The notes under the pieces were generated by a model, which was not told where the DNA came from, made no database searches, and saw nothing but the letters and a program-made list of their open reading frames with translations. Positions 33,165-54,166 of a DNA stretch of 64,000 nucleotides are shown one piece after another. The stretch lies in the sequence record MH791411.1, one strand, 5' to 3'. Source of the DNA: Escherichia phage Ecwhy_1. The position numbers and the translations under genes were made by a program. How positions within the stretch are numbered: position 1 is the stretch's first letter; each line of letters opens with the position of its first letter.

Positions 33165-33409
33165 TTTGAATCTCCTAACTTTGTGGGCCGTCGCACCATT
33201 GCCGCCCTACGAGATACATTATTGCAGTACTGATATACTTTGTCAATACTTTTTTATTAATAGTTTTAGTTCCACCAGCAGATAGTTACTCACCGTTATT
33301 AACTATATATTTTGGATACACTTATGCACCCTGTGGGCTAGTTTTTGTCTATGCGTATATAATAGCAAAGGGACTGACCTGAGTCAATCCCTTTTTTTAT
33401 TCTTTTTTG

Positions 33410-33610
33410 TTAGATGATTCTCCAATCATCAACGATCATGGTAAGATACCGAACCAGTGATTCGAGTGATTCGTGTTCTCGATAGTCTGACGCACCGCCA
33501 GCGGTACAAGTACAGCCGATTAAGCCGTTTTGCAATTCCTTAATCTGTACATCGATAAGGTTGGCTTTAGCTTCTTTCAGTACTTCAACCAGGGCGATAG
33601 CGATAGACAT
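33410..33610 (-). CDS. hypothetical small protein
   Basis: 66-aa ORF, cassette upstream. Confidence 0.45.
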   Translation of the reverse strand: MSIAIALVEVLKEAKANLIDVQIKELQNGLIGCTCTAGGASDYREHESLESLVRYLTMIVDDWRII

Positions 33611-34869: not shown

Positions 34870-35138
34870 AATAAGTACCCCACTTCGTTAGCTTTCAGGT
34901 TAGTATCAATCATCAGTGGATTTTTGTAGTTCACAAAACGAGTAGTTTTCTCGATAGCGAATCCCATATAATCCAGCTTACTAACAGTACATTCATTCTT
35001 AAAAACTTCTTTCGCTGCATCGATGGCTGATTGCATGGATAACCGACCATCTAAATTAATGTTTCCAAATGATCCACCAGCAGAAGTAGGATTACCGTTC
35101 ATATCTTTAATGATCATAGTAGCGGAGTAGCTGGACAT
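34866..35138 (-). CDS. hypothetical protein
   Basis: 90-aa ORF, cassette upstream. Confidence 0.45.
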   Translation of the reverse strand: MSSYSATMIIKDMNGNPTSAGGSFGNINLDGRLSMQSAIDAAKEVFKNECTVSKLDYMGFAIEKTTRFVNYKNPLMIDTNLKANEVGYLL

Positions 35139-35227
35139 AATTTTGTTTCCTTTTATTGGTGTGGGGAGAACTATTCTCCCCTTGATGTAAACTATTATAC
35201 AGTACTAAAATACTTTGTCAAATACTT

Positions 35228-35635
35228 TTATTCGCCCATATAGATTAGATTATCATCGCCTACATAGGGATCGCAAACGTTGATTTCTTCACAGTACTTC
35301 GTGAATACATCGCCATAGTGACCTAAACCACGATCCCAAAAACCAGTTCCGTGACCTTCGCGGGTAAGGAACAGATCATGACCAGCTTGCTCATAACCGT
35401 AATCAATAAACATACCGCGAACTACTTCCAGATCATTACCGTGTTTCTCAATGAAGCGAGAACATGCAATCACCGCCGCTTGACGTGCTTCATCAGATAA
35501 CTCATAATCTTCCAGGTAATCGCCGTTATCATTATGTACAGTACTGAATTGCATAGCTTCAATGTAAGCTACAACCATTGCAGCATGATTTTTATCGTTA
35601 GTGATGTTCCGAGCGAGATTAGTAGTAGTAGACAT
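35228..35635 (-). CDS. hypothetical protein
   Basis: 135-aa ORF; promoter (35688-35715), leader hairpin (35657-35675) and AAGGAA SD upstream. Confidence 0.55.
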   Translation of the reverse strand: MSTTTNLARNITNDKNHAAMVVAYIEAMQFSTVHNDNGDYLEDYELSDEARQAAVIACSRFIEKHGNDLEVVRGMFIDYGYEQAGHDLFLTREGHGTGFWDRGLGHYGDVFTKYCEEINVCDPYVGDDNLIYMGE

Positions 35636-35656
35636 GATTTTATTCCTTATTGTATT

Positions 35657-35675
35657 GGGGAGAACTATTCTCCCC
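35657..35675 (-). promoter_or_regulatory. 5' leader stem-loop GGGGAGAAtagTTCTCCCC (representative)
   Basis: perfect GC-rich palindrome between promoter and SD; same design upstream of most cassette genes. Confidence 0.6.
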
Positions 35676-35687
35676 TTGATGTAAACT

Positions 35688-35715
35688 ATTATACAGTACT
35701 GATATACTTTGTCAA
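35688..35715 (-). promoter_or_regulatory. sigma70-type promoter TTGACA-N16-TATAAT with CAGTACTG in spacer (representative)
   Basis: read on minus strand: TTGACAaagtatatcagtactgTATAAT. Confidence 0.65.
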
Positions 35716-35718
35716 TAC

Positions 35719-35940
35719 TTAATTACGTTTAAAATGATATGTGCCTTTATCATCCTGTACGCCCCATACTGATTTACCATCAACACCAGTGAAGCCGGAT
35801 TGTAATTCAATATGGAAACCATTATTATCAACTACAAAAACTTTTTTATTTTCATCCCGATAACATTGATATTCTGAATCAACATTAAAGGCCGCATCAT
35901 TCAGACGATTGGAAGCGTAAATGCAAGTCATTGTAGTCAT
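35719..35940 (-). CDS. hypothetical small protein
   Basis: trimmed to MTTMTCIYAS after leader. Confidence 0.4.
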   Translation of the reverse strand: MTTMTCIYASNRLNDAAFNVDSEYQCYRDENKKVFVVDNNGFHIELQSGFTGVDGKSVWGVQDDKGTYHFKRN

Positions 35941-36164
35941 GATTTTATTCCTTAATATACCAGGGAGAACCATTCCCCCTCTCGATATAAAACATTATAC
36001 TTGATTCTAAGTACAATGCAAGTACTTTTTTAAAAATAGTTTTCAGTACTGAATACTTATATAATAGATACACTTCCGCACCCTATGGGTCAGTGAGTTA
36101 TCTCTCAATGGATATATAATAGCAAAGGGACTGACCGGAGTCAATCCCTTTTTTTAATCTTTTT

Positions 36165-36749
36165 TTATCGTGTTACCTTACTTGCTGCCACATCACGCTT
36201 TTTATAGTACTGATTCCAGATATTGCTGGTTAAACCGTAATCAAGTACTTTAATAAGTCCATTACGATCCTGGCCGATATTCTGTTTTCTGATATCTCTT
36301 ATCGTTAGTGTTGATAATGTATCATCAACGTGTTGTAGTGCATCAGCAAAGCGGTGCTGGCGTTCGATTGCATTACGTTTAATATTGTACTTTAATTCAT
36401 TGCACGCGTTTACGTGCTTCACACTGCCTTTGCTTGCAGTACTCAACCGATCCATAACGATAAACATATTATCAGGATCGCATAAATGCATATGCACCTT
36501 TGCAAAGTACTGTTTCAATTGAGGGCGGTCATAGTCTAAAAAATTCCATACCTTACATTCAGTTTCATTTTGTTCTACACCCGCATCACAATTCGCGACC
36601 TTAATCACTAACCGATCATTTAAAGCGAAAACTATACGGGAAGAACCAGCACCGATGATCTCCAGGCCAGCTAACCGACAAGCTGAAAGGATCTCTTTGT
36701 TGGTTTCCATTTCTGACAGTGTACGGATGAATTTAGTATAATTACGCAT
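36165..36749 (-). CDS. protein-kinase-like protein (putative Ser/Thr kinase)
   Basis: G-loop IGAGSSRIVF, VIKV lysine, catalytic-loop-like IRDIRKQN, DFG-like LDYG; trimmed to ATG after AAGGAG SD. Confidence 0.55.
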   Translation of the reverse strand: MRNYTKFIRTLSEMETNKEILSACRLAGLEIIGAGSSRIVFALNDRLVIKVANCDAGVEQNETECKVWNFLDYDRPQLKQYFAKVHMHLCDPDNMFIVMDRLSTASKGSVKHVNACNELKYNIKRNAIERQHRFADALQHVDDTLSTLTIRDIRKQNIGQDRNGLIKVLDYGLTSNIWNQYYKKRDVAASKVTR

Positions 36750-36780
36750 TGCATGTTCTCCTTGAGTTAATGAAACTATA

Positions 36781-37023
36781 TTACAGTACTTTACTATCAA
36801 TGGCAACTACTTTTTTAACATTAACGGCGTGGATCACTTCCTTCGTGTTTTTAGTACTGAATACTTTCGCCGCTCCTTGTTCGACCGTGATACGATAGCG
36901 ACCATTAACATCAACCATATTAATAAAGTCCGGCGTGCTGAATGGTGTTGTTTTACATTTGAGTACTGTTAACAGTTCCACCAGCGATGTAGTTTCTTTG
37001 ATACGTTTTTCTAAAGTAATCAT
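36781..37023 (-). CDS. hypothetical protein
   Basis: trimmed to MITLEKRIKE; track N-terminus is translated leader. Confidence 0.45.
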   Translation of the reverse strand: MITLEKRIKETTSLVELLTVLKCKTTPFSTPDFINMVDVNGRYRITVEQGAAKVFSTKNTKEVIHAVNVKKVVAIDSKVL

Positions 37024-37080
37024 TTTGTTTCCCCCGTGTTGGTATGTACATATAGTACTAAAACATTTGAGTACTGTCAA

Positions 37081-37299
37081 TTAGATAATATTATATTTCT
37101 TAAAATAAAATGCGTCCTGTGTTGGTTGATACTCGATACCGTTACCGTTATTGACTTCAACTAATAAACCTTTGTCAATTAGTTTTTTAATAGTACGATA
37201 CCCTTGTTGAAAATTGGTAAAATGTGAATCATTACGAAAGGTATAACCGTGCTTAACTGCTTCATCAATAGTTTTCTTTTCGATTTTAGATAATTTCAT
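37081..37299 (-). CDS. hypothetical protein
   Basis: trimmed to MKLSKIEKK; same leader as previous gene. Confidence 0.45.
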   Translation of the reverse strand: MKLSKIEKKTIDEAVKHGYTFRNDSHFTNFQQGYRTIKKLIDKGLLVEVNNGNGIEYQPTQDAFYFKKYNII

Positions 37300-37352
37300 T
37301 TTGTTTCTCCCGTGTTGGTATGTGTACATAGTACTAAAACAATTGAGTACTG

Positions 37353-37607
37353 TCAACGTGATATTAGTTTTATTTTCTTATTGTATTGTTGATGCTCATA
37401 AAGGTTTATCTTTCCTGTGTTCTCGATTACTATCCTGTTGTTAGTGTCCACGTCGATTACACGCAGTTTCCCGTTGCTTAACTTCCTAGGTAATAGGTTA
37501 CCATTAATAAACTCATTAGCAAGCTGTACGGCCTTTGTGATGATTCTCTGAGGTGCTTTATAGTGTACCCGTAAGATGTTATCTTTATATAGTTGAACCT
37601 TAATCAT
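37353..37607 (-). CDS. hypothetical protein
   Basis: 84-aa ORF. Confidence 0.4.
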   Translation of the reverse strand: MIKVQLYKDNILRVHYKAPQRIITKAVQLANEFINGNLLPRKLSNGKLRVIDVDTNNRIVIENTGKINLYEHQQYNKKIKLISR

Positions 37608-37625
37608 TTTGTTTGTCCTATAAAA

Positions 37626-37648
37626 AAGGCGGGAACTGATCCCGCCGT
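37626..37648 (-). terminator. rho-independent terminator
   Basis: minus-strand hairpin GGCGGGAtcagtTCCCGCC followed by T-run. Confidence 0.6.
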
Positions 37649-37668
37649 GTTGTTAGTACTGCAAGTTA

Positions 37669-38073
37669 TTAGATAACCTGGCGGCGTTTACTGTATACTG
37701 TTACACGATTACCCTTACGATCATGTCGGATCTCTTTCTGGTTGCGAATCAGTTCACTTGGACGCTTAAGGTTTGCCAGGTGATCCGCGTGAGTCCATGC
37801 GGTGTGGTTTACCTGTACTTTGATATCAGAATCAGCGATAAACTCATCTTGTGCGTCAAGTATTGCCGCCAGCATATCCGCTCGTTTTAGTTCTGCTGCT
37901 GTCAGTACTGGCTCAGGTGAATTCACAATATCAGAGATTTCTTTGAACTGTACGGCCCAGCGTTGACCTTTCGTTGCATCTTTGCCCATGTCTTTAAATG
38001 CTGCTCCTTCCTCGCGTGCAACAATACGGGCAGCTTCACGGGTAGCGTAGAATTTAGTAATCATGGTATACAT
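37669..38073 (-). CDS. hypothetical protein (paralog of 51079..51342)
   Basis: shared KFYATREAARI ... FKDMG ... RWA ... DRKGNRVTVY; start may be M4. Confidence 0.55.
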   Translation of the reverse strand: MYTMITKFYATREAARIVAREEGAAFKDMGKDATKGQRWAVQFKEISDIVNSPEPVLTAAELKRADMLAAILDAQDEFIADSDIKVQVNHTAWTHADHLANLKRPSELIRNQKEIRHDRKGNRVTVYSKRRQVI

Positions 38074-39117: not shown

Positions 39118-39578
39118 TTTAATGTTTCCTTATCAGTGGTTGATGTAAGTATTATACTCGTTTACTTTCTATTGTCAAACTATTTTATCAGGGGAGTTTT
39201 TCGTATGTCTTACTCCTGGACTACTTAACGGGGTTACTTATTTCGTTCCCCGTCCTGATGTAAAACATTATACTTGATTCTAAGTACAATGCAAGTACTT
39301 TTTTAAAAATAGTTTTCAGTACTAGCCACCAGCAAACAATAGATACATTTATGCACCCTGTGGGCTAATTTGTTTCTATGCGTATATAATAGCAAAGGGA
39401 CTGACCGGAGTCAATCCCTTTTTCAAATATTTTTAAACTTCTTTCGGGTTGCGATATGTGATAGCGTTCGGGTACATTTGTTTAATGTTATTCCATGCCT
39501 GGTTAACATTATAACCACTTGATCGAATCAGTTGGTTATTACCGACACCTTGAAACACTACTTCAAATAAGAATTCTT

Positions 39579-39752
39579 TCATGCTTTCACCTCTCGATCT
39601 GCTTTGCCTTTACGCCAGGCCGTTGCTAATTGTTCGCGTTGCCATAAGTCGAGTGATACGTAAAGTTTTGCATTATCACCCTTCGGATATTCGCCAGTAG
39701 TACCAATCCGATAAAACAGATCTTTCAGTACTGTTAATTCTACCTGGACCAT
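39579..39752 (-). CDS. hypothetical small protein
   Basis: trimmed to MVQVELTVLK. Confidence 0.4.
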   Translation of the reverse strand: MVQVELTVLKDLFYRIGTTGEYPKGDNAKLYVSLDLWQREQLATAWRKGKADREVKA

Positions 39753-40675: not shown

Positions 40676-40753
40676 TTTTATTTCCTCTTAGTAGGGGAAG
40701 ATGTTTCCCCTTGATGCAAGTACTATAACAGTACTGAAAACTAAATGCAAGTA

Positions 40754-41110
40754 CTATGATAAAATCATGATAGGATATTCACTATCTATCAATACCTCGA
40801 ATCCGAAACCTTCGTACCATTCTTTAAGATTAAAGGCGTTATCTTCTCCCGTATCGCATTCTAAGATGATACAATCTGAATCATCGGCGGCATCAATAAA
40901 GGCATTCATTAATTCGTTACCTTCACCATTGCCCCGACTATCAGGATCAACATAAAGAGAATCAATAAACGCTACACGGTCATAATCAAGATCCGGTGCA
41001 ATGATTCCACGTTTAACAAACCAGTACTGCAATTGTGCTACTTTGCCCTGTACTTGATAGCCAGTGATCTCGCCATTGTCAGTAGTACGCGTGATATGTT
41101 GTATTCCCAT
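40754..41110 (-). CDS. GNAT-family N-acetyltransferase-like protein
   Basis: motif-A-like VDPDSRGNGEGNELM and motif-B-like WYEGFGFE; short (118 aa). Confidence 0.45.
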   Translation of the reverse strand: MGIQHITRTTDNGEITGYQVQGKVAQLQYWFVKRGIIAPDLDYDRVAFIDSLYVDPDSRGNGEGNELMNAFIDAADDSDCIILECDTGEDNAFNLKEWYEGFGFEVLIDSEYPIMILS

Positions 41111-41173
41111 GATTACTATCCTCAGTTAAGATATAAAACATTATACACTATCTTTCAGTACTGTCAATACTTT

Positions 41174-41431: not shown

Positions 41432-41594
41432 TATTTTAACCTCATTATAAAAATACTATAGTACTGTAATGCTACAATAATACTACTAGTGTTTATCTTA
41501 TTCAAACCATATGATACTACATATCCACCAGCATTACCACGAATAGTAACGCCTTTGTACTGTCTATATAAATTCAACTGCGTATATTGCCTTT

Positions 41595-41665
41595 GATCAA
41601 GAATTGATCAGAATTATACGCCTTATGCTAAATTGATCCAGTACTTTTTTGATCATTTATTGATC
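41595..41665. repeat. cluster of five TTGATC(A) repeats (5 GATC sites in 71 bp)
   Basis: GATC at 41595, 41606, 41635, 41651, 41662; in long leader upstream of TraR-like gene. Confidence 0.5.
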
Positions 41666-41760
41666 GATATTATATAGTTACATTTGTGCACCCTATGGGT
41701 TAGTGACGTTCTCGTCTTGATGTAAGTATTATGCCAGTACTGGAGGATATTGTCAATAGA

Positions 41761-43211: not shown

Positions 43212-43420
43212 GATTTGTTTCCTTATTACCAGGGGAAACCGTTTCCCCCTCTCGATGTAAAACATTATACGCTTATTGAGATAGTTTGCAAGTACTTTCT
43301 ACAAATACTTTTAAAATAGTTTTCAGTACTCAATACTCATATAATAGATACACTTATGCACCCTGTGGGCTAGTGAGCTATCTCTCAATGAATATATAAT
43401 AGCAAAATGGCTGACCGGAG

Positions 43421-43576
43421 TCAACCACTTTTTTCATTTATTTTTAGCTTTTAGAATCGCCGCCTTTCGCGTCATGCCTTGCTTGATGTATTCTTGTACT
43501 TTCGCTTTACGTGCATTCGCTTTATTTGCTTTCGTAAATGCCGAACAACTTTTATAGTTTAAACCTGTTGGATTCA
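43421..43576 (-). CDS. small basic protein (about 51 aa)
   Basis: hand-translated; Lys/Arg-rich; directly follows TM-peptide ORF; coordinates +/-1. Confidence 0.3.
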
Positions 43577-43667
43577 TTTAAATCACCATAAAGAATAGAT
43601 AGGTTACTAACAACGCCGCGATCAATGCACCGACCAGGGCCGAACTATAGTAAGCTAATGTTTTCAT
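43577..43667 (-). CDS. small hydrophobic peptide (about 29 aa, single TM helix)
   Basis: MKTLAYYSSALVGALIAALLVTYLFFMVI; ATGA overlap with upstream stop; coordinates +/-1. Confidence 0.3.
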
Positions 43668-48147: not shown

Positions 48148-48290
48148 TTGACAAGTGCATCCAGTACTGGCATAATTACTACATCAAGACGAAACAGTCA
48201 CTAACCCACCGGGTGCCGAGATCCGTCTATTAAATGATTCAGTACTGAAAAAGTAACGGGGAGTTATTATCTCCCCGTGTTGTTATTTTG
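48148..48290 (+). ncRNA. candidate small RNA / orphan plus-strand transcription unit
   Basis: TTGACA-N17-CATAAT promoter (48148-48176), no ORF, ends at bidirectional terminator hairpin CGGGGAGttattatCTCCCCG plus T-run. Confidence 0.3.
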
Positions 48291-48504
48291 TAAGGTATAA
48301 ACAGAAGTCGCCTTTATTTGCTACGCCGCCAGTGTAACGCGAGGAATAGTTAGAAACGTCCTGGACTTCTGCTATTACCAGGGTATCATCATTCAATTCG
48401 TCGCAGAAGCAAACGGCTGGATCTTGTACGCCGATTTTGTCGGCATGTTCCCGCATAGATTTAACCAGTGCTTCCAGTTGGGAAAGAGTAGTGATATTAG
48501 CCAT
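48283..48504 (-). CDS. hypothetical small protein
   Basis: trimmed to MANITTLSQL. Confidence 0.45.
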   Translation of the reverse strand: MANITTLSQLEALVKSMREHADKIGVQDPAVCFCDELNDDTLVIAEVQDVSNYSSRYTGGVANKGDFCLYLTK

Positions 48505-48588
48505 TTTATTTTCCTCATTACCAGGGAGAACCATTTCTCCCTTTGATGTAAACCATTATACAGTACTGAAAACTAATTGCAAGTACTT

Positions 48589-50333: not shown

Positions 50334-50557
50334 TTTGTAACCCTCATTCAGTAGTTGATGTAAGTATTATACGCTTTTAAAAACATTTGTCAAACTATTT
50401 TATCAGGGGAGTTTTTCGTGTGCCTTACTCCTGGGCTACTTAACGGGAAGTTACTTATTTCGTTCCCCGTCCTGATGTAAAACATTATACGCCTTTAAAC
50501 ATAGTTTGCAAGTACTTTTTAAAAATAGTTTTCAGTACTGAATAGTAAAAAAAAGTA

Positions 50558-50586
50558 TTGACAGCATTATCAAGTACTGGTATAAT
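50558..50586 (+). promoter_or_regulatory. orphan sigma70-type promoter TTGACA-N17-TATAAT
   Basis: plus strand, no ORF downstream; faces minus-strand promoter at 50702-50730. Confidence 0.5.
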
Positions 50587-50701
50587 ATACCCCATGACAA
50601 CAGCTAACCCACCGGGTGCACAATTGTAACTATACTAAACTAATTTTTCTATAGATACACTCCCGCACCCTATGGGCTACGGCTTATCTGCCAATGAATA
50701 C

Positions 50702-50730
50702 ATTATGCCAGTACTGACAAAATAAGTCAA
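50702..50730 (-). promoter_or_regulatory. sigma70-type promoter TTGACT-N17-CATAAT (convergent partner)
   Basis: read on minus strand; leader contains AGCCCATAGGGTGC. Confidence 0.5.
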
Positions 50731-52127: not shown

Positions 52128-52490
52128 CGTTTTAATCTCTCTTAATGTGTAGCGGGAAGTGTTCCCGCTCTCGATGTAAAACATTATACGCTTTTATCAG
52201 TACGGTGCAAGTACTTTCTACAAATACTTTTAAAATAGTTTTCTTTCTATATAGGAGTACTATTATTCAGTACTGCAATCATCCAGGGGAACTATCTTTC
52301 TATATAGGAGTACTATTATTCAGTACTGAATCAATCCACTAAATCATCCCTATACCCCGTAAAACGTCCTCAGACGCATTCTAACGCATTAATACACATA
52401 AGCTATACATTTGCACCATTCCAATCATTCCAGGGCTTTACAGGCCGTTTAAACGCGTTAAATTATTTTCAATTATTTTGTTTTTAGGTA

Positions 52491-52518
52491 TTGACTTGAT
52501 CCTGAAAAAGCGTATAAT
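52491..52518 (+). promoter_or_regulatory. orphan sigma70-type promoter TTGACT-N16-TATAAT
   Basis: plus strand in ORF-poor region. Confidence 0.45.
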
Positions 52519-52716
52519 TACTACATAGACGCGAGAAAGCGGATACCCCAGGGGGTGGGAAGATCCGTCCAAAATTCAAGATATAAAAAAAGGATACACT
52601 CCCGCACCCTAGCAGGTAAACGCACTTTCTCAGTACTGAAATATAGTACCATAGTCCGGCCCAGGATAGCAAGCAAATTAATTAAAACTTTTTTGCTTCC
52701 AGGGTATTGCTTTATT

Positions 52717-52744
52717 TTTCCAGTACTGTATAATAGTTCCATCA
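52717..52744 (+). promoter_or_regulatory. orphan promoter (TTGCTT ... CAGTACTG-TATAAT)
   Basis: plus strand; leader contains AGCCCACCGGGTGC. Confidence 0.4.
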
Positions 52745-52956
52745 AGTCGAGAAAGACTCAAGCCCACCGGGTGCATAGTTACGCCCAAAATTCAGTACTG
52801 AAAAAATTTTTAAAAATATCCGGCCAGGCCGTTGACATTGCCCCCAGTTTATAAGATAATGATTCCAGATTCAGAAAAATCTAACACCAGATACTGCGGG
52901 GAAACTATCCCCACGCGGTAGGGGAACTATTGGAAAAAACAAAATAAAATTTTGAT

Positions 52957-53100
52957 TTAGCCGTCTATACTTCCAGACGTGTAACCATCTAGCCGTTTAG
53001 CCGTCCAAACGTCTAGCCATCCAGCCATCCAGAAATCTAGCCGTTTAGCCGTCTAGATGGATAGCCATCTTTACTTCCAGACTTCTGGAGGGCTAGACAT
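52957..53100. repeat. 8-bp periodic tandem repeat array (about 18 units, consensus TAGCCGTC)
   Basis: in-register 8-mers tagccgtc/tagccgtt/tagccatc/cagccatc ...; flanked by TACTTCCAGAC repeats and CCAGAcTTCTGG palindrome. Confidence 0.7.
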
Positions 53101-54166
53101 ATCTACGCCCAAAATCCATCCAGGGTAACTACGCCCAAAATCCGTCAGTACTATACCATAGATCTATCTTTTGAAAGGGAGTATTCAGTACTGCCATCAT
53201 AGCCCTCACTATGTTACCCTAGGAGGATGAAGACCATCATGTAGTACTGAATACTGTTAGAGGGAATCCACCAGCTTGTGCTGGTGGCATAATGCTTTAG
53301 ATTAAAATCAGTACTGACACCATTCTGTTAATATCAGTACTGTTATTACGATTTTCATATGAGGTTCAAAAAGATGTACCACCACAGGAGGAACTATCTT
53401 TTCTGTACTGTCTCACGACAGGAGGTAGAGTAAATGAATTGTTCGCAGCAACTCATCACCCTATGTAGAACATTATACAGTACTGAATCATAAAGTCAAT
53501 AACTTTCTTTCATCTTTCAGTACTGATATTCTTGAGAACTACCCGACTACAAACATCATTATATCCCACAAATCATAAACGTCCCAACGTAAATTTCAAC
53601 TTTCGAAGATCCAACTTTTATTTCATAGGTACTCCAAAATTTTTAGGATCGAGATTTAGGATGGAGTACTAACCAACTTTTTGCTGGAGCCTCAAGGGGT
53701 AATGGAATTTTACCCCGAAGGGTAAAGGGGTAATTGAAATTAAGGTGAAAGTAATAATTCAGTACTAATCATTGCGTGATTACTTTTGATTACATTTGAT
53801 GTAATTTGCAAAATGGAAAAGGAGCTTGGAAACTACAAAGTACGGCAGACTTCCTCTGCCTACTTAGTGGGATATCGCCACCTTCAGTACTGAATACTTT
53901 TAGGGCAGTACTGAATCCTTCCCTAGCATTCTTGAGTAATCTTGTCTATAATAATCAGTACTGAATCATATATAATCATTCTGTGATTCTACGGTGCTCA
54001 TATAAATGTTTATATATGATTACTTATGACTACATATGATTACGGGGTTTAGCCTGGGGAGAATCCTAGTGATCGCATTTGTCCAGGCTGAATTTTAACA
54101 ATTCTTCTAATTGTTAAAGCCTGTCCAATGCTTTCCCTGCGGAGCTTCCCCTGTCTATATGTTGAA

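What the first reader, a model, noticed from the sequence alone, without database searches (positions are those of the whole stretch)
36041..36160. Four-copy cassette in which a hairpin embeds a -35 element on one strand and forms a terminator on the other
Copies at about 33280-33400, 36041-36160, 39300-39430 and 43300-43440 share TATATAATAGCAAAGGGACTGACCGGAGTCAATCCCTTTTTTT. On the plus strand this is a perfect stem plus T-run (a terminator for antisense or read-through transcription); on the minus strand the same stem contains TTGACT followed 17 nt later by TATTAT (a promoter). The element would stop transcription from one direction and start it in the other, acting as an insulator.
Basis: seen in the sequence. 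Interest (0 to 1): 0.5.

Follow-up and report, generated by a model that had tools for sequence, protein, structure and literature searches.

The report
Terminator hairpin doubling as early promoter
In the terminal repeat of a jumbo E. coli phage, a hairpin that most likely ends one early gene's transcript also carries the -35 box of a promoter that restarts transcription in the same direction; that overlap design is already known, but the small structured RNA the promoter launches is conserved across the whole phage group and I found no description of it.

Summary
The repeat is real: three near-identical copies plus a diverged fourth. The window is an Asteriusvirus (121Q/G17/fEgEco12-like) jumbo coliphage, and all copies lie in its ~21-kb direct terminal repeat, among minus-strand early genes.

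Its plus-strand terminator does not. The stem has a C.A mismatch on plus and a G.U wobble on minus. Across 26 homologous hairpins from related phages, all 48 non-Watson-Crick pairs are G.U on the gene strand, and most loops are UNCG-type there. Each hairpin starts 2-15 nt after a minus-strand stop codon.

Terminator and promoter are therefore co-directional. This matches "promoter-coupled terminators" (Fletcher et al. 2026) and T4 PeSL cassettes. GenBank G17 already annotates these hairpins as minus-strand terminators.

The new part is what the promoter launches. A ~52-nt module begins at the predicted start site. It has a covarying 5' hairpin, a sequence-invariant RCCC-loop-GGGU hairpin and a conserved tail. 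The window holds 11 copies on both strands, all inside the terminal repeat, and Rak2-like phages hold 81 distinct copies. Rfam, E. coli genomes and the searched literature have nothing like it. Its function is unknown.

In passing, the repeat is about 25-fold enriched in correctly oriented Chi sites.

The parts
36124..36151 (-). Copy 2 (the finding): 12-bp hairpin AAAGGGATTGAC-UCCG-GUCAGUCCCUUU. Predicted intrinsic terminator of the upstream ORF 36165-36806. The U-rich tail UUUGCUAUUAU runs into the -10.
   Evidence: RNAfold gives -19.5 kcal/mol on minus (z -6.2) against -13.2 on plus. The scan flags it as terminator-like on the minus strand only. The stop codon lies 13 nt upstream. The homologous G17 hairpin is annotated in GenBank as a minus-strand ARNold terminator.
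36116..36158 (-). Copy 2 promoter P1: A-run (UP-like) at about 36149-36155 (extends a few bases upstream), -35 TTGACT 36144-36139 inside the 5' arm of the hairpin, 17-nt spacer, TG at 36124-36123, -10 TATTAT 36121-36116. The predicted start is the A at 36109, in a C-A-T context 7 nt after the -10.
   Evidence: The scan scores it 10 of 12 with TG. The same elements, with 17-18 nt spacing and CAT 7 nt after the -10, recur in about 20 distinct homologues from other genera. The start site is inferred, not mapped.
36062..36113 (-). Copy 2 transcribed module: H1 UGAG-AGAUAA-CUCA (36107-36094), linker CUG, H2 ACCC-AUA-GGGU (36090-36080), tail GCGGAAGUGUAUCUAUUA (36079-36062).
   Evidence: Best covariance-model hit in the window: 60.9 bits, E 6.5e-15. 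H1 covariation and H2 invariance are shown.
36042..36053 (.). Palindrome TTCAGTACTGAA between the module and the second promoter.
   Evidence: About 30 copies in the window at up to 1 mismatch, against 0.25 expected.
35963..36021 (-). Second promoter P2 (-35 TTGCAT 36021-36016, 16-nt spacer, -10 TATAAT 35999-35994) and its 5'-UTR hairpin GGGGGAAUGGUUCUCCC (35979-35963). These are followed by the Shine-Dalgarno sequence and the ATG at 35940 of ORF 35719-35940.
   Evidence: Read from the sequence. Belongs to repeat families D1-D5. ORF.
33310..33401 (-). Copy 1: hairpin 33367-33394, -35 33387-33382, -10 33364-33359, and a short-form module (no H1 stem) 33359-33310. It follows the stop of ORF 33410-33610. 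A Chi site lies at 33272-33279.
39337..39428 (-). Copy 3: hairpin 39394-39421, -35 39414-39409, -10 39391-39386, and a short-form module 39383-39337. It follows the stop of ORF 39433-39582. A Chi site lies at 39326-39333.
43342..43438 (-). Copy 4: hairpin 43404-43431 (AAAGUGGUUGAC-UCCG-GUCAGCCAUUUU, with compensatory changes and two G.U pairs), -35 43424-43419, -10 43401-43396, and module 43393-43342. It follows the stop of ORF 43434-43577.
41672..41756 (-). Fifth same-strand module copy. It is driven by an ordinary TTGACA-17-CATAAT promoter with no terminator hairpin.
48148..48295 (+). Plus-strand promoter, module (48181-48232) and hairpin GGGGAGUUAUUAUCUCCCC with a U-rich tail. Together they look like a free-standing ~100-nt RNA gene lying antisense between two minus-strand ORFs.
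50589..50699 (.). Convergent pair of modules (plus 50589-50635, minus 50649-50699), each with its own promoter.
   Evidence: The minus-strand RNA folds at -53.4 kcal/mol (z -8.0) against -28.8 on plus.
52523..52790 (.). Three more modules (plus 52523-52574, minus 52588-52646, plus 52739-52790) in the ~1.7-kb non-coding stretch at the left end of the terminal repeat.

Best explanation
Each of the four cassettes is a co-directional terminator-promoter composite sitting between two minus-strand early genes. All four lie in the direct terminal repeat (about window 32.9-53.9 kb) of an Asteriusvirus jumbo coliphage.

Proposed mechanism:
1. Host RNA polymerase coming from the upstream gene transcribes a 12-bp hairpin with an UNCG-type loop and a U-rich tail, and terminates there.
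2. The same DNA supplies an A-tract (UP-like), the -35 hexamer TTGACT (in the 5' arm of the hairpin), a 17-nt spacer (the 3' arm plus the T-tract) and an extended -10 (TGcTATTAT).
3. Sigma70 polymerase therefore re-initiates about 15 nt past the hairpin, at a conserved C-A(+1)-T.
4. The new transcript begins with a conserved ~52-nt module. H1 is a 5'-proximal hairpin with a variable but complementary stem and a purine-rich loop; it is missing in the short form. H2 is the sequence-invariant hairpin RCCC-loop-GGGU followed by GC. A conserved tail follows (consensus U-G/C-U/C-A/G-U-C-U/C-A-U-A).
5. In these four copies the transcript then crosses a second, ordinary early promoter and the next gene.

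The cassette thus resets transcription between neighbouring units in the same direction and adds a structured RNA. I think this RNA most likely acts through its 5' ~55 nt as a binding site for a conserved protein partner, with H1 protecting the 5' end.

Shown: the sequence anatomy, the strand of the hairpin, conservation of the promoter geometry, H1 covariation, and the distribution. Inferred: actual termination, the start site, and what the RNA does.
For: Identity and context:
- The window is 95-99% identical to Asteriusvirus genomes.
- The terminal repeat was mapped from fEgEco12 (20,993 bp, confirmed there by restriction digests), from vB_Ec-M-J (repeat 1-21525) and from the G17 genome start at window 31,912.

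Strand of the hairpin:
- Minus-strand folds are 5-10 kcal/mol better than plus-strand folds.
- Terminator-like hits are on the minus strand only.
- 20 distinct homologous hairpins pair in 99.5% of cells on the gene strand and 82.7% on the opposite strand. Four pairs show compensatory double changes, in 15 cells against 2.8 in shuffles, 0/500.
- 48 wobble positions are of the gene-strand type and 0 of the antisense type.
- Loops are mostly UCCG, UUCG or UACG.
- Stop codons lie 2-15 nt upstream.
- G17's GenBank record annotates the hairpins as minus-strand terminators.

Promoter:
- The -35, 17-18 nt spacer, TG, -10 and CAT 7 nt after the -10 are kept in the homologous composites even where the stem sequence and the -10 hexamer (TATTAT or TATACT) differ.
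- Module copies without a hairpin have canonical TTGACA/TATAAT promoters at the same distance.

Module:
- The covariance model finds 11 copies in the window, all within 33.3-52.8 kb, and 93 hits (81 distinct rows) in Rak2-like loci.
- All 4 H1 pairs covary, in 108 double-change cells against 44.4 +/- 6.4, 0/500, and the slid controls collapse.
- The cassette is 70-80% identical in non-coding DNA across Escherichia, Klebsiella, Salmonella, Cronobacter, Pectobacterium, Serratia, Yersinia and Erwinia phages.

Architecture precedent:
- Same-strand terminators about 10 bp upstream of a start site, with the stem-loop DNA serving as the -35 and the T-tract abutting the -10.
- PeSL stem-loops overlapping the -35.
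Against: - No transcript ends have been mapped for any Rak2-like phage in the literature I could search. Termination and initiation are therefore predictions.
- The U-tract on the gene strand (UUUGCUAUUAU) is interrupted, so termination may be partial.
- The plus strand has a cleaner T7 run, so some bidirectional activity in copies 1-3 is possible.
- The H2 stem is invariant: only one compensatory case (ACCU...AGGU) in 81 distinct sequences. It could therefore be a DNA-level motif rather than an RNA hairpin.
- The initial copy set was collected with a pattern that fixes H2, which inflates its apparent invariance. The later covariance-model search relaxed this and found mainly loop variants plus two altered stems.
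- The module's function rests on inference only.
Confidence: 0.7

Rival explanations
1. First reader's model. The hairpin is a plus-strand terminator that stops antisense or read-through transcription, while the minus strand of the same DNA carries a promoter. The element would be a two-direction insulator.
For: A perfect T5-T7 run follows the stem on plus. Copies 1-3 still fold at -13.2 kcal/mol on plus, z about -3.5. Bidirectional terminators with A- and T-tracts on either side are known.
Against: - The stem is mismatched on plus, and copy 4 folds no better than shuffles there (z -0.74).
- All 48 non-Watson-Crick positions in 26 homologues favour the gene strand.
- Most loops are UNCG-type on the gene strand only.
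- The scan does not call the hairpins on plus.
- All flanking genes are on minus, and no conserved plus-strand promoter points into the hairpins.
- The A-run has a role as an UP-like element.
Confidence: 0.1
2. The cassette is a plus-strand small-RNA gene. A plus-strand -10 (TATAAT at 36060-36065) would drive a ~90-nt RNA ending at the plus-strand stem plus T-run.
For: TATAAT is present on plus in copies 2 and 4, about 90 nt upstream of the T-run.
Against: - There is no acceptable -35 (TAGTTT).
- The -10-like hexamer is absent in copies 1 and 3 and is not listed by the promoter scan.
- It is simply the complement of the module's A/U-rich tail.
- Wobble pairs in H1, in the H2 closing pair (40 of 81 are G.U) and in the terminator stem all favour the minus strand.
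Confidence: 0.03
3. The cassettes are chiefly PeSL-like mobile regulatory cassettes. They would be dispersed promoter/terminator repeats maintained because they serve as homology for shuffling early ORFan genes, with gene expression a by-product. This is compatible with the best explanation as an additional role.
For: - Copies share 73-86% identity while the flanking genes are unrelated.
- The region is dense in small ORFans and promoter/stem-loop repeats.
- One window-versus-G17 indel (40736-41157) has both junctions inside promoter spacers at the AGTACTG motif. Another (41442-41760) removes exactly one promoter-plus-module unit.
- A ~190-bp P2 leader is shared at 86% between 39133-39323 and 50348-50539.
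Against: - No indel found so far is bounded by two of the four hairpin cassettes themselves.
- One of three indels examined has no repeat at its junctions.
- Deep conservation of H2 and the tail, and covariation in H1 across genera, point to selection on the RNA or sequence itself rather than on mere homology.
Confidence: 0.3
4. The module is a cis-acting element on the nascent RNA that modifies the polymerase that made it, like HK022 put, or like lambda nut or rrn boxB-boxA with host Nus factors. P1-initiated polymerases would then read through the downstream terminators.
For: - The position is fixed immediately after the start site, and the orientation is always tied to a promoter.
- Two hairpins are followed by a conserved single-stranded tail.
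- 13 of 83 copies are followed within 18-51 nt by an intrinsic terminator, as in promoter-antiterminator-terminator arrangements.
- The gene array is punctuated by terminators.
Against: - 24 of 83 copies face a convergent partner, and several are antisense stand-alone units with nothing to read into.
- Resemblance of the tail to boxA is weak and needs a gap (my own comparison from memory of the consensus).
- No Rfam antiterminator family matches.
Confidence: 0.15
5. The hairpin-promoter plus module units are decaying remnants of duplicated promoter-leader regions whose genes were deleted. They would have no function of their own.
For: The start of the module (CAUUGAGAG...) resembles the start of ordinary early leaders (ACAUCGAGAGGGG...).
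Against: - 81 distinct copies keep H2 and the tail, with loop variants and only two altered stems, and keep H1 complementarity through 10 or more different stem sequences.
- Conservation spans eight host genera.
- The geometry relative to the promoter is fixed.
Confidence: 0.04

Closest known systems
Promoter-coupled terminators (Fletcher, Forrest, Cooper, Adams, Kapanidis, Grainger; bioRxiv 10.64898/2026.08.19.745784)
   Same: A same-strand intrinsic terminator and promoter share DNA between tandem genes. The stem-loop DNA doubles as the -35, and the T-tract sits directly upstream of the -10. The start is a purine preceded by a pyrimidine, and the predicted termination site is about 10 nt upstream of it.
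   Different: Those elements were defined by mapped RNA ends in bacterial chromosomes, whereas here everything is predicted. This is a repeated, sequence-conserved phage element whose promoter launches a conserved non-coding module rather than directly the next gene's mRNA.
PeSL (promoter-early stem-loop) cassettes of T4-type phages (Arbiol et al. 2010, PMC2839356; Comeau et al. 2014, PMC4122927)
   Same: Repeated ~100-bp composites in hyperplastic early regions full of ORFans. They have an AT-rich upstream region, a sigma70 consensus promoter and a stem-loop that can overlap the -35. They are proposed to terminate upstream transcription and isolate cassettes, and G.U pairs occur in the stems.
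   Different: A PeSL ends with the Shine-Dalgarno sequence and start codon of the next gene. Here the promoter is followed by a conserved structured RNA module and often by a second promoter, a terminator or a convergent twin. The phage lineage also differs (Rak2-like jumbo phages). Recombination and mini-circle activity were not shown.
Bidirectional intrinsic terminators
   Same: A GC-rich hairpin flanked by an A-tract on one side and a T-tract on the other.
   Different: Wobble asymmetry shows selection on one strand only, and there are no convergent genes.
Promoter-proximal antitermination RNAs (HK022 putL/putR; lambda nut boxA/boxB) and the lambda PR'-6S RNA-tR' unit. From my own knowledge, not tested.
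   Same: Structured RNA with two hairpins encoded just downstream of early promoters, in some copies followed closely by a terminator.
   Different: No sequence or covariance-model similarity. There are 11 copies per repeat on both strands, many convergent. No evidence of read-through.
Highly expressed ncRNA001 and ncRNA002 in the 39-kb terminal repeat of the jumbo Pseudomonas phage PA5oct (PMC7318152)
   Same: [quoted passage not shown] They make up 2-5% of phage reads from early infection.
   Different: They are 236-451 nt long, and the module model finds no homologue in the PA5oct repeat.

Membership tests
Promoter-coupled terminator (Fletcher et al. 2026) | Terminator and promoter lie on the same strand between tandem genes. 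| tested here: met
   The hairpin is selected on the gene strand. The promoter is on the same strand. Flanking ORFs are both on minus.
Promoter-coupled terminator (Fletcher et al. 2026) | Stem-loop DNA coincides with the -35, and the T-tract lies immediately upstream of the -10 hexamer. | tested here: met
   TTGACT lies in the 5' arm. CCCTTT-GC-TATTAT follows.
Promoter-coupled terminator (Fletcher et al. 2026) | Mapped RNA 3' end within 35 bp (mode about 10 bp) upstream of a mapped 5' end. | not testable with these tools
   Only predicted. The stem's GC core ends 18 nt before the predicted +1, which would put a typical release site about 10 nt upstream.
PeSL (T4-type phages) | [quoted passage not shown] | tested here: met
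   TTGACT-17-TGcTATTAT with an A5-A7 run upstream.
PeSL (T4-type phages) | Stable stem-loop within or overlapping the promoter, able to terminate upstream transcription. | tested here: met
   Met at sequence level: a 12-bp stem at -17 to -19.5 kcal/mol, directly after stop codons. Termination activity itself was not measured.
PeSL (T4-type phages) | The 3' end of the motif carries the Shine-Dalgarno sequence and start codon of the downstream gene. | tested here: not met
   P1 is followed by the non-coding module and a second promoter. The ~20 ordinary P2-type units in the region (promoter, polyG/polyC hairpin, Shine-Dalgarno) do meet this feature.
PeSL (T4-type phages) | Copies act as recombination points for indels and mini-circles. 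| tested here: inconclusive
   Of three indels examined, one has both junctions in promoter spacers, one removes a promoter-plus-module unit, and one has no repeat at its junctions. None is bounded by two hairpin cassettes.
Structured RNA family (general criteria) | Base pairs maintained by compensatory substitutions. | tested here: met
   Met for H1: all 4 pairs covary, in 108 double-change cells against 44.4 +/- 6.4, 0/500, and the slid controls fall to 0.073 or less against 0.322. Also met for the terminator stem.
Structured RNA family (general criteria) | Covariation in the second hairpin (H2). | tested here: inconclusive
   The CCC/GGG stem is invariant in 79-81 of 81 rows, with a single C-G to U-A double change. 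The closing pair alternates A-U and G.U.
Any Rfam 15 family | Match to a curated covariance model. | tested here: not met
   No hit at the cassettes at E up to 1 over window 30-50 kb. None at E up to 10 on four module-bearing loci.
RNA anti-CRISPR (solitary CRISPR-repeat mimic) | Near-identity to a host CRISPR repeat, including its hairpin. | tested here: not met
   By my own ungapped comparison with the type I-F repeat recalled from memory, only 16 of 28 positions match, and the stem differs in length and register. No similarity was found in 5,426 E. coli genomes.

The most novel reading that the evidence does not exclude
The promoter hidden in the terminator hairpin is one of several ways of driving an RNA family I found described nowhere. 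The family is phage-specific and made early. It is a ~55-nt 5' module with a covarying hairpin, an invariant RCCC-loop-GGGUGC hairpin and a conserved tail. It is present in about 11 copies per terminal repeat and conserved across all Rak2-like jumbo phages of Enterobacterales. It would act either as a multi-copy decoy or sponge for a conserved host or phage protein, or as a cis-acting modifier of the transcribing polymerase, during the first minutes of infection.
Probability: 0.45. Interest if true: 0.7.

Novelty: new variant of a known kind. Interest (0 to 1): 0.5.

Why it matters
The overlap of terminator and promoter is a clean, repeated and evolutionarily conserved natural example of promoter-terminator coupling. 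Compensatory mutations keep both functions on one strand. That makes it useful as a compact insulating part and as comparative support for a very recent claim about bacterial genome organisation.

More importantly, following the promoter downstream exposes a multi-copy structured RNA confined to the ~21-kb terminal repeats of a whole group of therapeutic-candidate jumbo phages (E. coli, Klebsiella, Salmonella, Cronobacter, Erwinia and Pectobacterium phages). The early programme of these phages is essentially unstudied. If the RNA is abundant early, it is a direct handle on host take-over by these phages.

The Chi-rich terminal repeats suggest how their linear ends cope with RecBCD.

Tried and rejected
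- Rfam: no family at the cassettes or modules.
- Host origin or mimicry: a 21-base module pattern has no match in 185,579 bacterial and archaeal species genomes. BLAST of the module against 5,426 E. coli genomes finds nothing.
- PA5oct terminal-repeat ncRNAs: no homologue of the module.
- Coding potential: a GUG/AUG in the tail opens ORFs of 1-42 codons in the window copies. The putative start position is C in 23 of 81 distinct copies, and the frames end at different places, so this was rejected.
- A third helix, or a pseudoknot between the H1 loop or the 5' end and the tail: a mutual-information scan over all column pairs finds covariation only within H1.
- Sense-versus-antisense folding energy of the module alone does not discriminate the strands. 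Strand assignment therefore rests on the promoter linkage and on the G.U pairs.
- RNAalifold on a plain MAFFT alignment found only H2, because H1 is out of register. A hand-registered subset and a covariance-model alignment were needed.
- CRISPR-repeat (type I-F) mimicry and boxA similarity: weak, judged chance. Both are my own comparisons with sequences recalled from memory.
- Literature: no transcript maps or small-RNA reports for Rak2-like phages in the searchable library. The CBB paper lists RpoD-like promoters with UP elements and 74 terminators, but not this element.
Full report
**1. What the window is**

Megablast of 35000-38000 finds 40 phage records, the best at 95-99% identity. Nearly all are jumbo coliphages of the genus Asteriusvirus: fEgEco12, G17, 121Q, PBECO4 and phAPEC6.

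Three mappings place the direct terminal repeat (DTR) at about window 32.9-53.9 kb:
- fEgEco12's experimentally confirmed 20,993-bp DTR.
- The DTR annotated at 1-21525 in vB_Ec-M-J.
- The first base of G17, which equals window 31,912.

Genes in the DTR are small ORFs of unknown function on the minus strand. Many carry a near-consensus TTGACA-16/17-TATAAT promoter followed by a polyG/polyC 5'-UTR hairpin and a Shine-Dalgarno sequence.

**2. The observation**

The 43-nt motif is exact at 36113-36155. It has 1 mismatch at 33356-33398 and 2 at 39383-39425, and none is expected by chance. The fourth copy, near 43398-43440, has 6 mismatches. It is still 86% identical to copy 2 over 137 nt and has compensatory changes in the stem.

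TTGACT-17-TATTAT preceded by TG is present on the minus strand in all four copies.

The 'perfect stem' on the plus strand is not there. The position that is U.G on minus is C.A on plus, and copy 4 has more such positions. RNAfold gives -19.5, -18.5, -19.5 and -16.9 kcal/mol on minus. On plus it gives -13.2, -13.2, -13.2 and -6.4, and the last value is indistinguishable from shuffles.

**3. Which strand the hairpin serves**

A distant BLAST shows the cassette in 67 records and 339 places. These cover Escherichia, Klebsiella, Salmonella, Cronobacter, Pectobacterium, Serratia, Yersinia and Erwinia jumbo phages, at 70-80% identity in non-coding DNA. Where termini were annotated, the hits are often under terminal-repeat features.

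From IMG/VR loci I collected 26 hairpins whose 5' arm ends in TTGAC. They differ in stem sequence: GGGA/UCCC, GUGG/CCAU, GUAC/GUAC, GGGG/CCCC and AAGG/CCUU. All keep the same design: A-run, stem, tetraloop (mostly UCCG, UUCG or UACG), stem, U-run, then TG plus the -10.

- On an ungapped alignment of 20 distinct examples, 99.5% of 220 pair cells are standard pairs on the gene strand and 82.7% on the opposite strand. Four pairs show double compensatory changes, in 15 cells against 2.8 +/- 1.9 in shuffles, 0/500.
- Allowing only gene-strand wobble finds 26 hairpins with 48 G.U pairs. Allowing only antisense-type wobble finds just the one perfectly Watson-Crick hairpin, with 0 wobble.
- The four window hairpins begin 15, 13, 11 and 2 nt after the stop codons of minus-strand ORFs 33410-33610, 36165-36806, 39433-39582 and 43434-43577.
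- The G17 GenBank record already annotates the homologous hairpins as minus-strand ARNold terminators.

The hairpin is therefore the terminator of the upstream, co-directional gene. The plus-strand T-run is the gene-strand A-run just upstream of the -35, where it fits the proximal UP-element consensus AAAAAARNR. I recall that consensus from Estrem et al.; the CBB genome paper also reports UP-like elements at these phages' RpoD-type promoters.

**4. The promoter**

In the homologous composites the -35 TTGAC(T/A) is followed by 17-18 nt, a TG, and a -10 that is TATTAT in some lineages and TATACT in others. A conserved C-A-T follows, with the A exactly 7 nt after the -10.

Module copies that lack the hairpin have ordinary TTGACA or TTGACT -17- (TG)CATAAT or TATAAT promoters at the same distance. 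This linkage is the main argument that P1 is a real promoter and that the conserved sequence downstream of it is transcribed.

**5. What the promoter launches**

The conserved part downstream of P1 is not specific to the four cassettes. A pattern search and then a covariance model find 11 copies in the window:
- Seven on minus: 33.3, 36.1, 39.4, 41.7, 43.4, 50.7 and 52.6 kb.
- Four on plus: 48.2, 50.6, 52.5 and 52.8 kb.

All are inside the DTR. None lies in the 43 kb of flanking sequence. Across the fetched Rak2-like loci the model finds 93 hits, 81 of them distinct.

Anatomy:
- +1 is the A of the conserved CAT.
- H1 is a 3-5-bp stem with at least 10 different sequences at the same position and a purine-rich 6-8-nt loop (AGAUAA, GCGAAA, GAGAAA or AGAACAA). 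About a quarter of copies, including cassette copies 1 and 3, are a short form that keeps only the A-rich stretch.
- A linker follows, usually CUA.
- H2 is RCCC-loop-GGGU followed by GC.
- A purine-rich pentamer follows.
- The tail has the consensus U-G/C-U/C-A/G-U-C-U/C-A-U-A.

H1 covaries strongly. All four pairs have double changes, in 108 cells against 44.4 +/- 6.4 (0/500), and the covariation score is 0.322 against at most 0.073 for slid partners (on the seed alignment).

The H2 stem is invariant except for one C-G to U-A double change and one shortened stem. Its loop varies: ACA, AUA, AUU, ACC, UAGA, UCAA and GUAA. Its closing pair is A-U in 38 and G.U in 40 of 81 copies. No other covarying column pairs exist.

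The initial copy set was gathered with a pattern that fixes H2, so its invariance was partly built in. The model search relaxed that and found mainly loop variants plus the two altered stems.

**6. Contexts of the module**

Among 83 distinct copies:
- 22 are followed 20-60 nt later by a second sigma70-type promoter. The four cassettes are of this kind.
- 24 face a convergent twin 30-48 nt away.
- 13 are followed within 18-51 nt by an intrinsic terminator.
- 24 have none of these by my crude rules.

The plus-strand copy at 48181-48232 sits between two minus-strand ORFs and runs into a hairpin that also ends the gene 48283-48534. It looks like a free-standing ~100-nt RNA gene.

The convergent pair at 50.6 kb folds as one long hairpin in minus-strand RNA: -53.4 kcal/mol (z -8.0), against -28.8 on plus.

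The only constant part is the promoter plus the first ~55 nt of RNA. I therefore infer that the function resides in the 5' portion of the transcript, or in the act of transcribing it, and not in a particular downstream gene.

**7. Comparison with what is known**

The terminator/promoter overlap matches two described kinds.

- *Promoter-coupled terminators.* Fletcher et al. (bioRxiv 2026) map RNA ends in Acinetobacter and other bacteria. They find same-strand terminators whose 3' ends lie about 10 bp upstream of a start site. The stem-loop DNA serves as the -35, the T-tract abuts the -10, and the elements lie mainly between tandem genes. The geometry here is the same, but no ends are mapped.
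- *PeSLs.* Arbiol et al. 2010 and Comeau et al. 2014 describe repeated promoter-early/stem-loop cassettes in hyperplastic regions of T4-type phages. In one subclass the stem-loop overlaps the -35. The cassettes are proposed to isolate gene units transcriptionally and to serve as recombination points.

The cassette meets the promoter, AT-rich and stem-loop criteria for a PeSL. It fails the criterion that the motif ends in the next gene's ribosome-binding site. The neighbouring P2-type units fit PeSLs better.

Evidence for a recombination role is suggestive only. One G17-versus-window indel has both junctions inside promoter spacers, and another removes exactly one promoter-plus-module unit. No indel is bounded by two hairpin cassettes.

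For the module I found no counterpart. There is no Rfam family, no match in bacterial genomes, no homologue in the PA5oct repeat where abundant ncRNAs were reported, and no paper in the searchable library.

**8. Mechanism and confidence**

I put 0.7 on the co-directional 'stop, then restart' reading of the hairpin/promoter.

For the module I commit, with low confidence, to a protein-binding 5' RNA domain:
- H1 starts within 2-4 nt of the 5' end. From my own recollection of Belasco's work on 5'-terminal stem-loops and RNase E, that is how a 5' hairpin protects an RNA.
- H2 plus the tail are conserved in sequence, as expected for a specific partner.

The cis-acting antitermination alternative gets about 0.15. 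A plain neutral remnant is contradicted by the covariation and conservation.

**9. Verdict**

The overlap itself is a new, unusually well-conserved phage example of a known design. The RNA module it drives, and its restriction to the terminal repeats, is the part worth following up.

Noticed in passing
window 33272-53287 (12 sites; list): The E. coli Chi octamer GCTGGTGG occurs 12 times against 0.46 expected. Eleven sites lie inside the terminal repeat, nine of them on the minus strand. By the standard RecBCD rule (recalled from memory), the minus-strand sites are active for entry at the right physical end (about 32.9 kb; the nearest site is ~400 bp in). The plus-strand site at 53280-53287 is active for the left end (about 53,864; ~580 bp in). 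Two sites sit inside cassette copies 1 and 3. The module-bearing loci of RaK2, GAP32, CBB, 121Q, fHe-Yen9-04 and related contigs hold 87 Chi sites in 176 kb, against about 1.6 expected. The PA5oct repeat holds none. Chi clustering in P1's terminal redundancy and in Chi-rich lambdoid phages is a published precedent (PMC12315714).
   Followed up: partly
window-wide, e.g. 36042-36053, 48238-48249, 50531-50542, 52791-52802: The palindrome TTCAGTACTGAA (core CAGTACTG/AGTACT) occurs about 30 times at up to 1 mismatch, against 0.25 expected. It lies in promoter spacers just upstream of the -10 (supplying the TG), abutting -35 boxes, and after modules. It could be an operator for an early-gene regulator, or a promoter-context element. 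One indel junction falls in it.
   Followed up: partly
window 32.7-47.8 kb (families D1-D5): About 20 ordinary early units share one layout: TTGACA/TTGCAA-16/17-TATAAT, the start context ACATCAAG, a hairpin GGGGAGAAnnnTTCTCCCC, then AAGGAAT and ATG. These fit the published PeSL description (polyG/polyC stem-loop, Shine-Dalgarno at the 3' end) better than the four-copy cassette does.
   Followed up: partly
window 50582-50706 and 52523-52646; many related loci: Convergent pairs of promoter-plus-module units occur at fixed spacing (30, 41 or 48 nt). They make up 24 of 83 distinct copies. The 50.6-kb pair folds as a ~55-bp hairpin in minus-strand RNA (-53.4 kcal/mol) but much less well on plus (-28.8). 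The purpose is unknown; mutual termination, an RNase III substrate or an origin-like element are possibilities.
   Followed up: partly
window 52185-54166: A stretch of about 1.7-2 kb with no convincing ORF spans the left boundary of the terminal repeat (about 53,864). It holds three modules, several TTCAGTACTGAA palindromes and a back-to-back Chi pair (53268 minus, 53280 plus). GC skew changes sign near 54 kb, and GC content steps up at about 32 kb, which is the other boundary.
   Followed up: partly
window 41600-41680 (minus strand, downstream of the 41.7-kb module): Five copies of (T)GATCAA, each carrying a Dam GATC site, lie within about 80 nt around a promoter-like TATAAT. This whole unit (41442-41760) is absent from G17.
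   Followed up: no
window 39133-39323 versus 50348-50539: A ~190-bp second-promoter-plus-leader segment is shared at about 86% identity between the unit downstream of cassette copy 3 and the unit downstream of the 50.7-kb module. The coding regions are unrelated, which suggests exchange of regulatory segments between units.
   Followed up: no
window 36165-36806 (minus): The ORF terminated by the finding's hairpin is annotated in relatives as a serine/threonine protein kinase (fEgEco12, ph0011, Turkey phages). It is one of the few early genes in the repeat with a predicted function.
   Followed up: no
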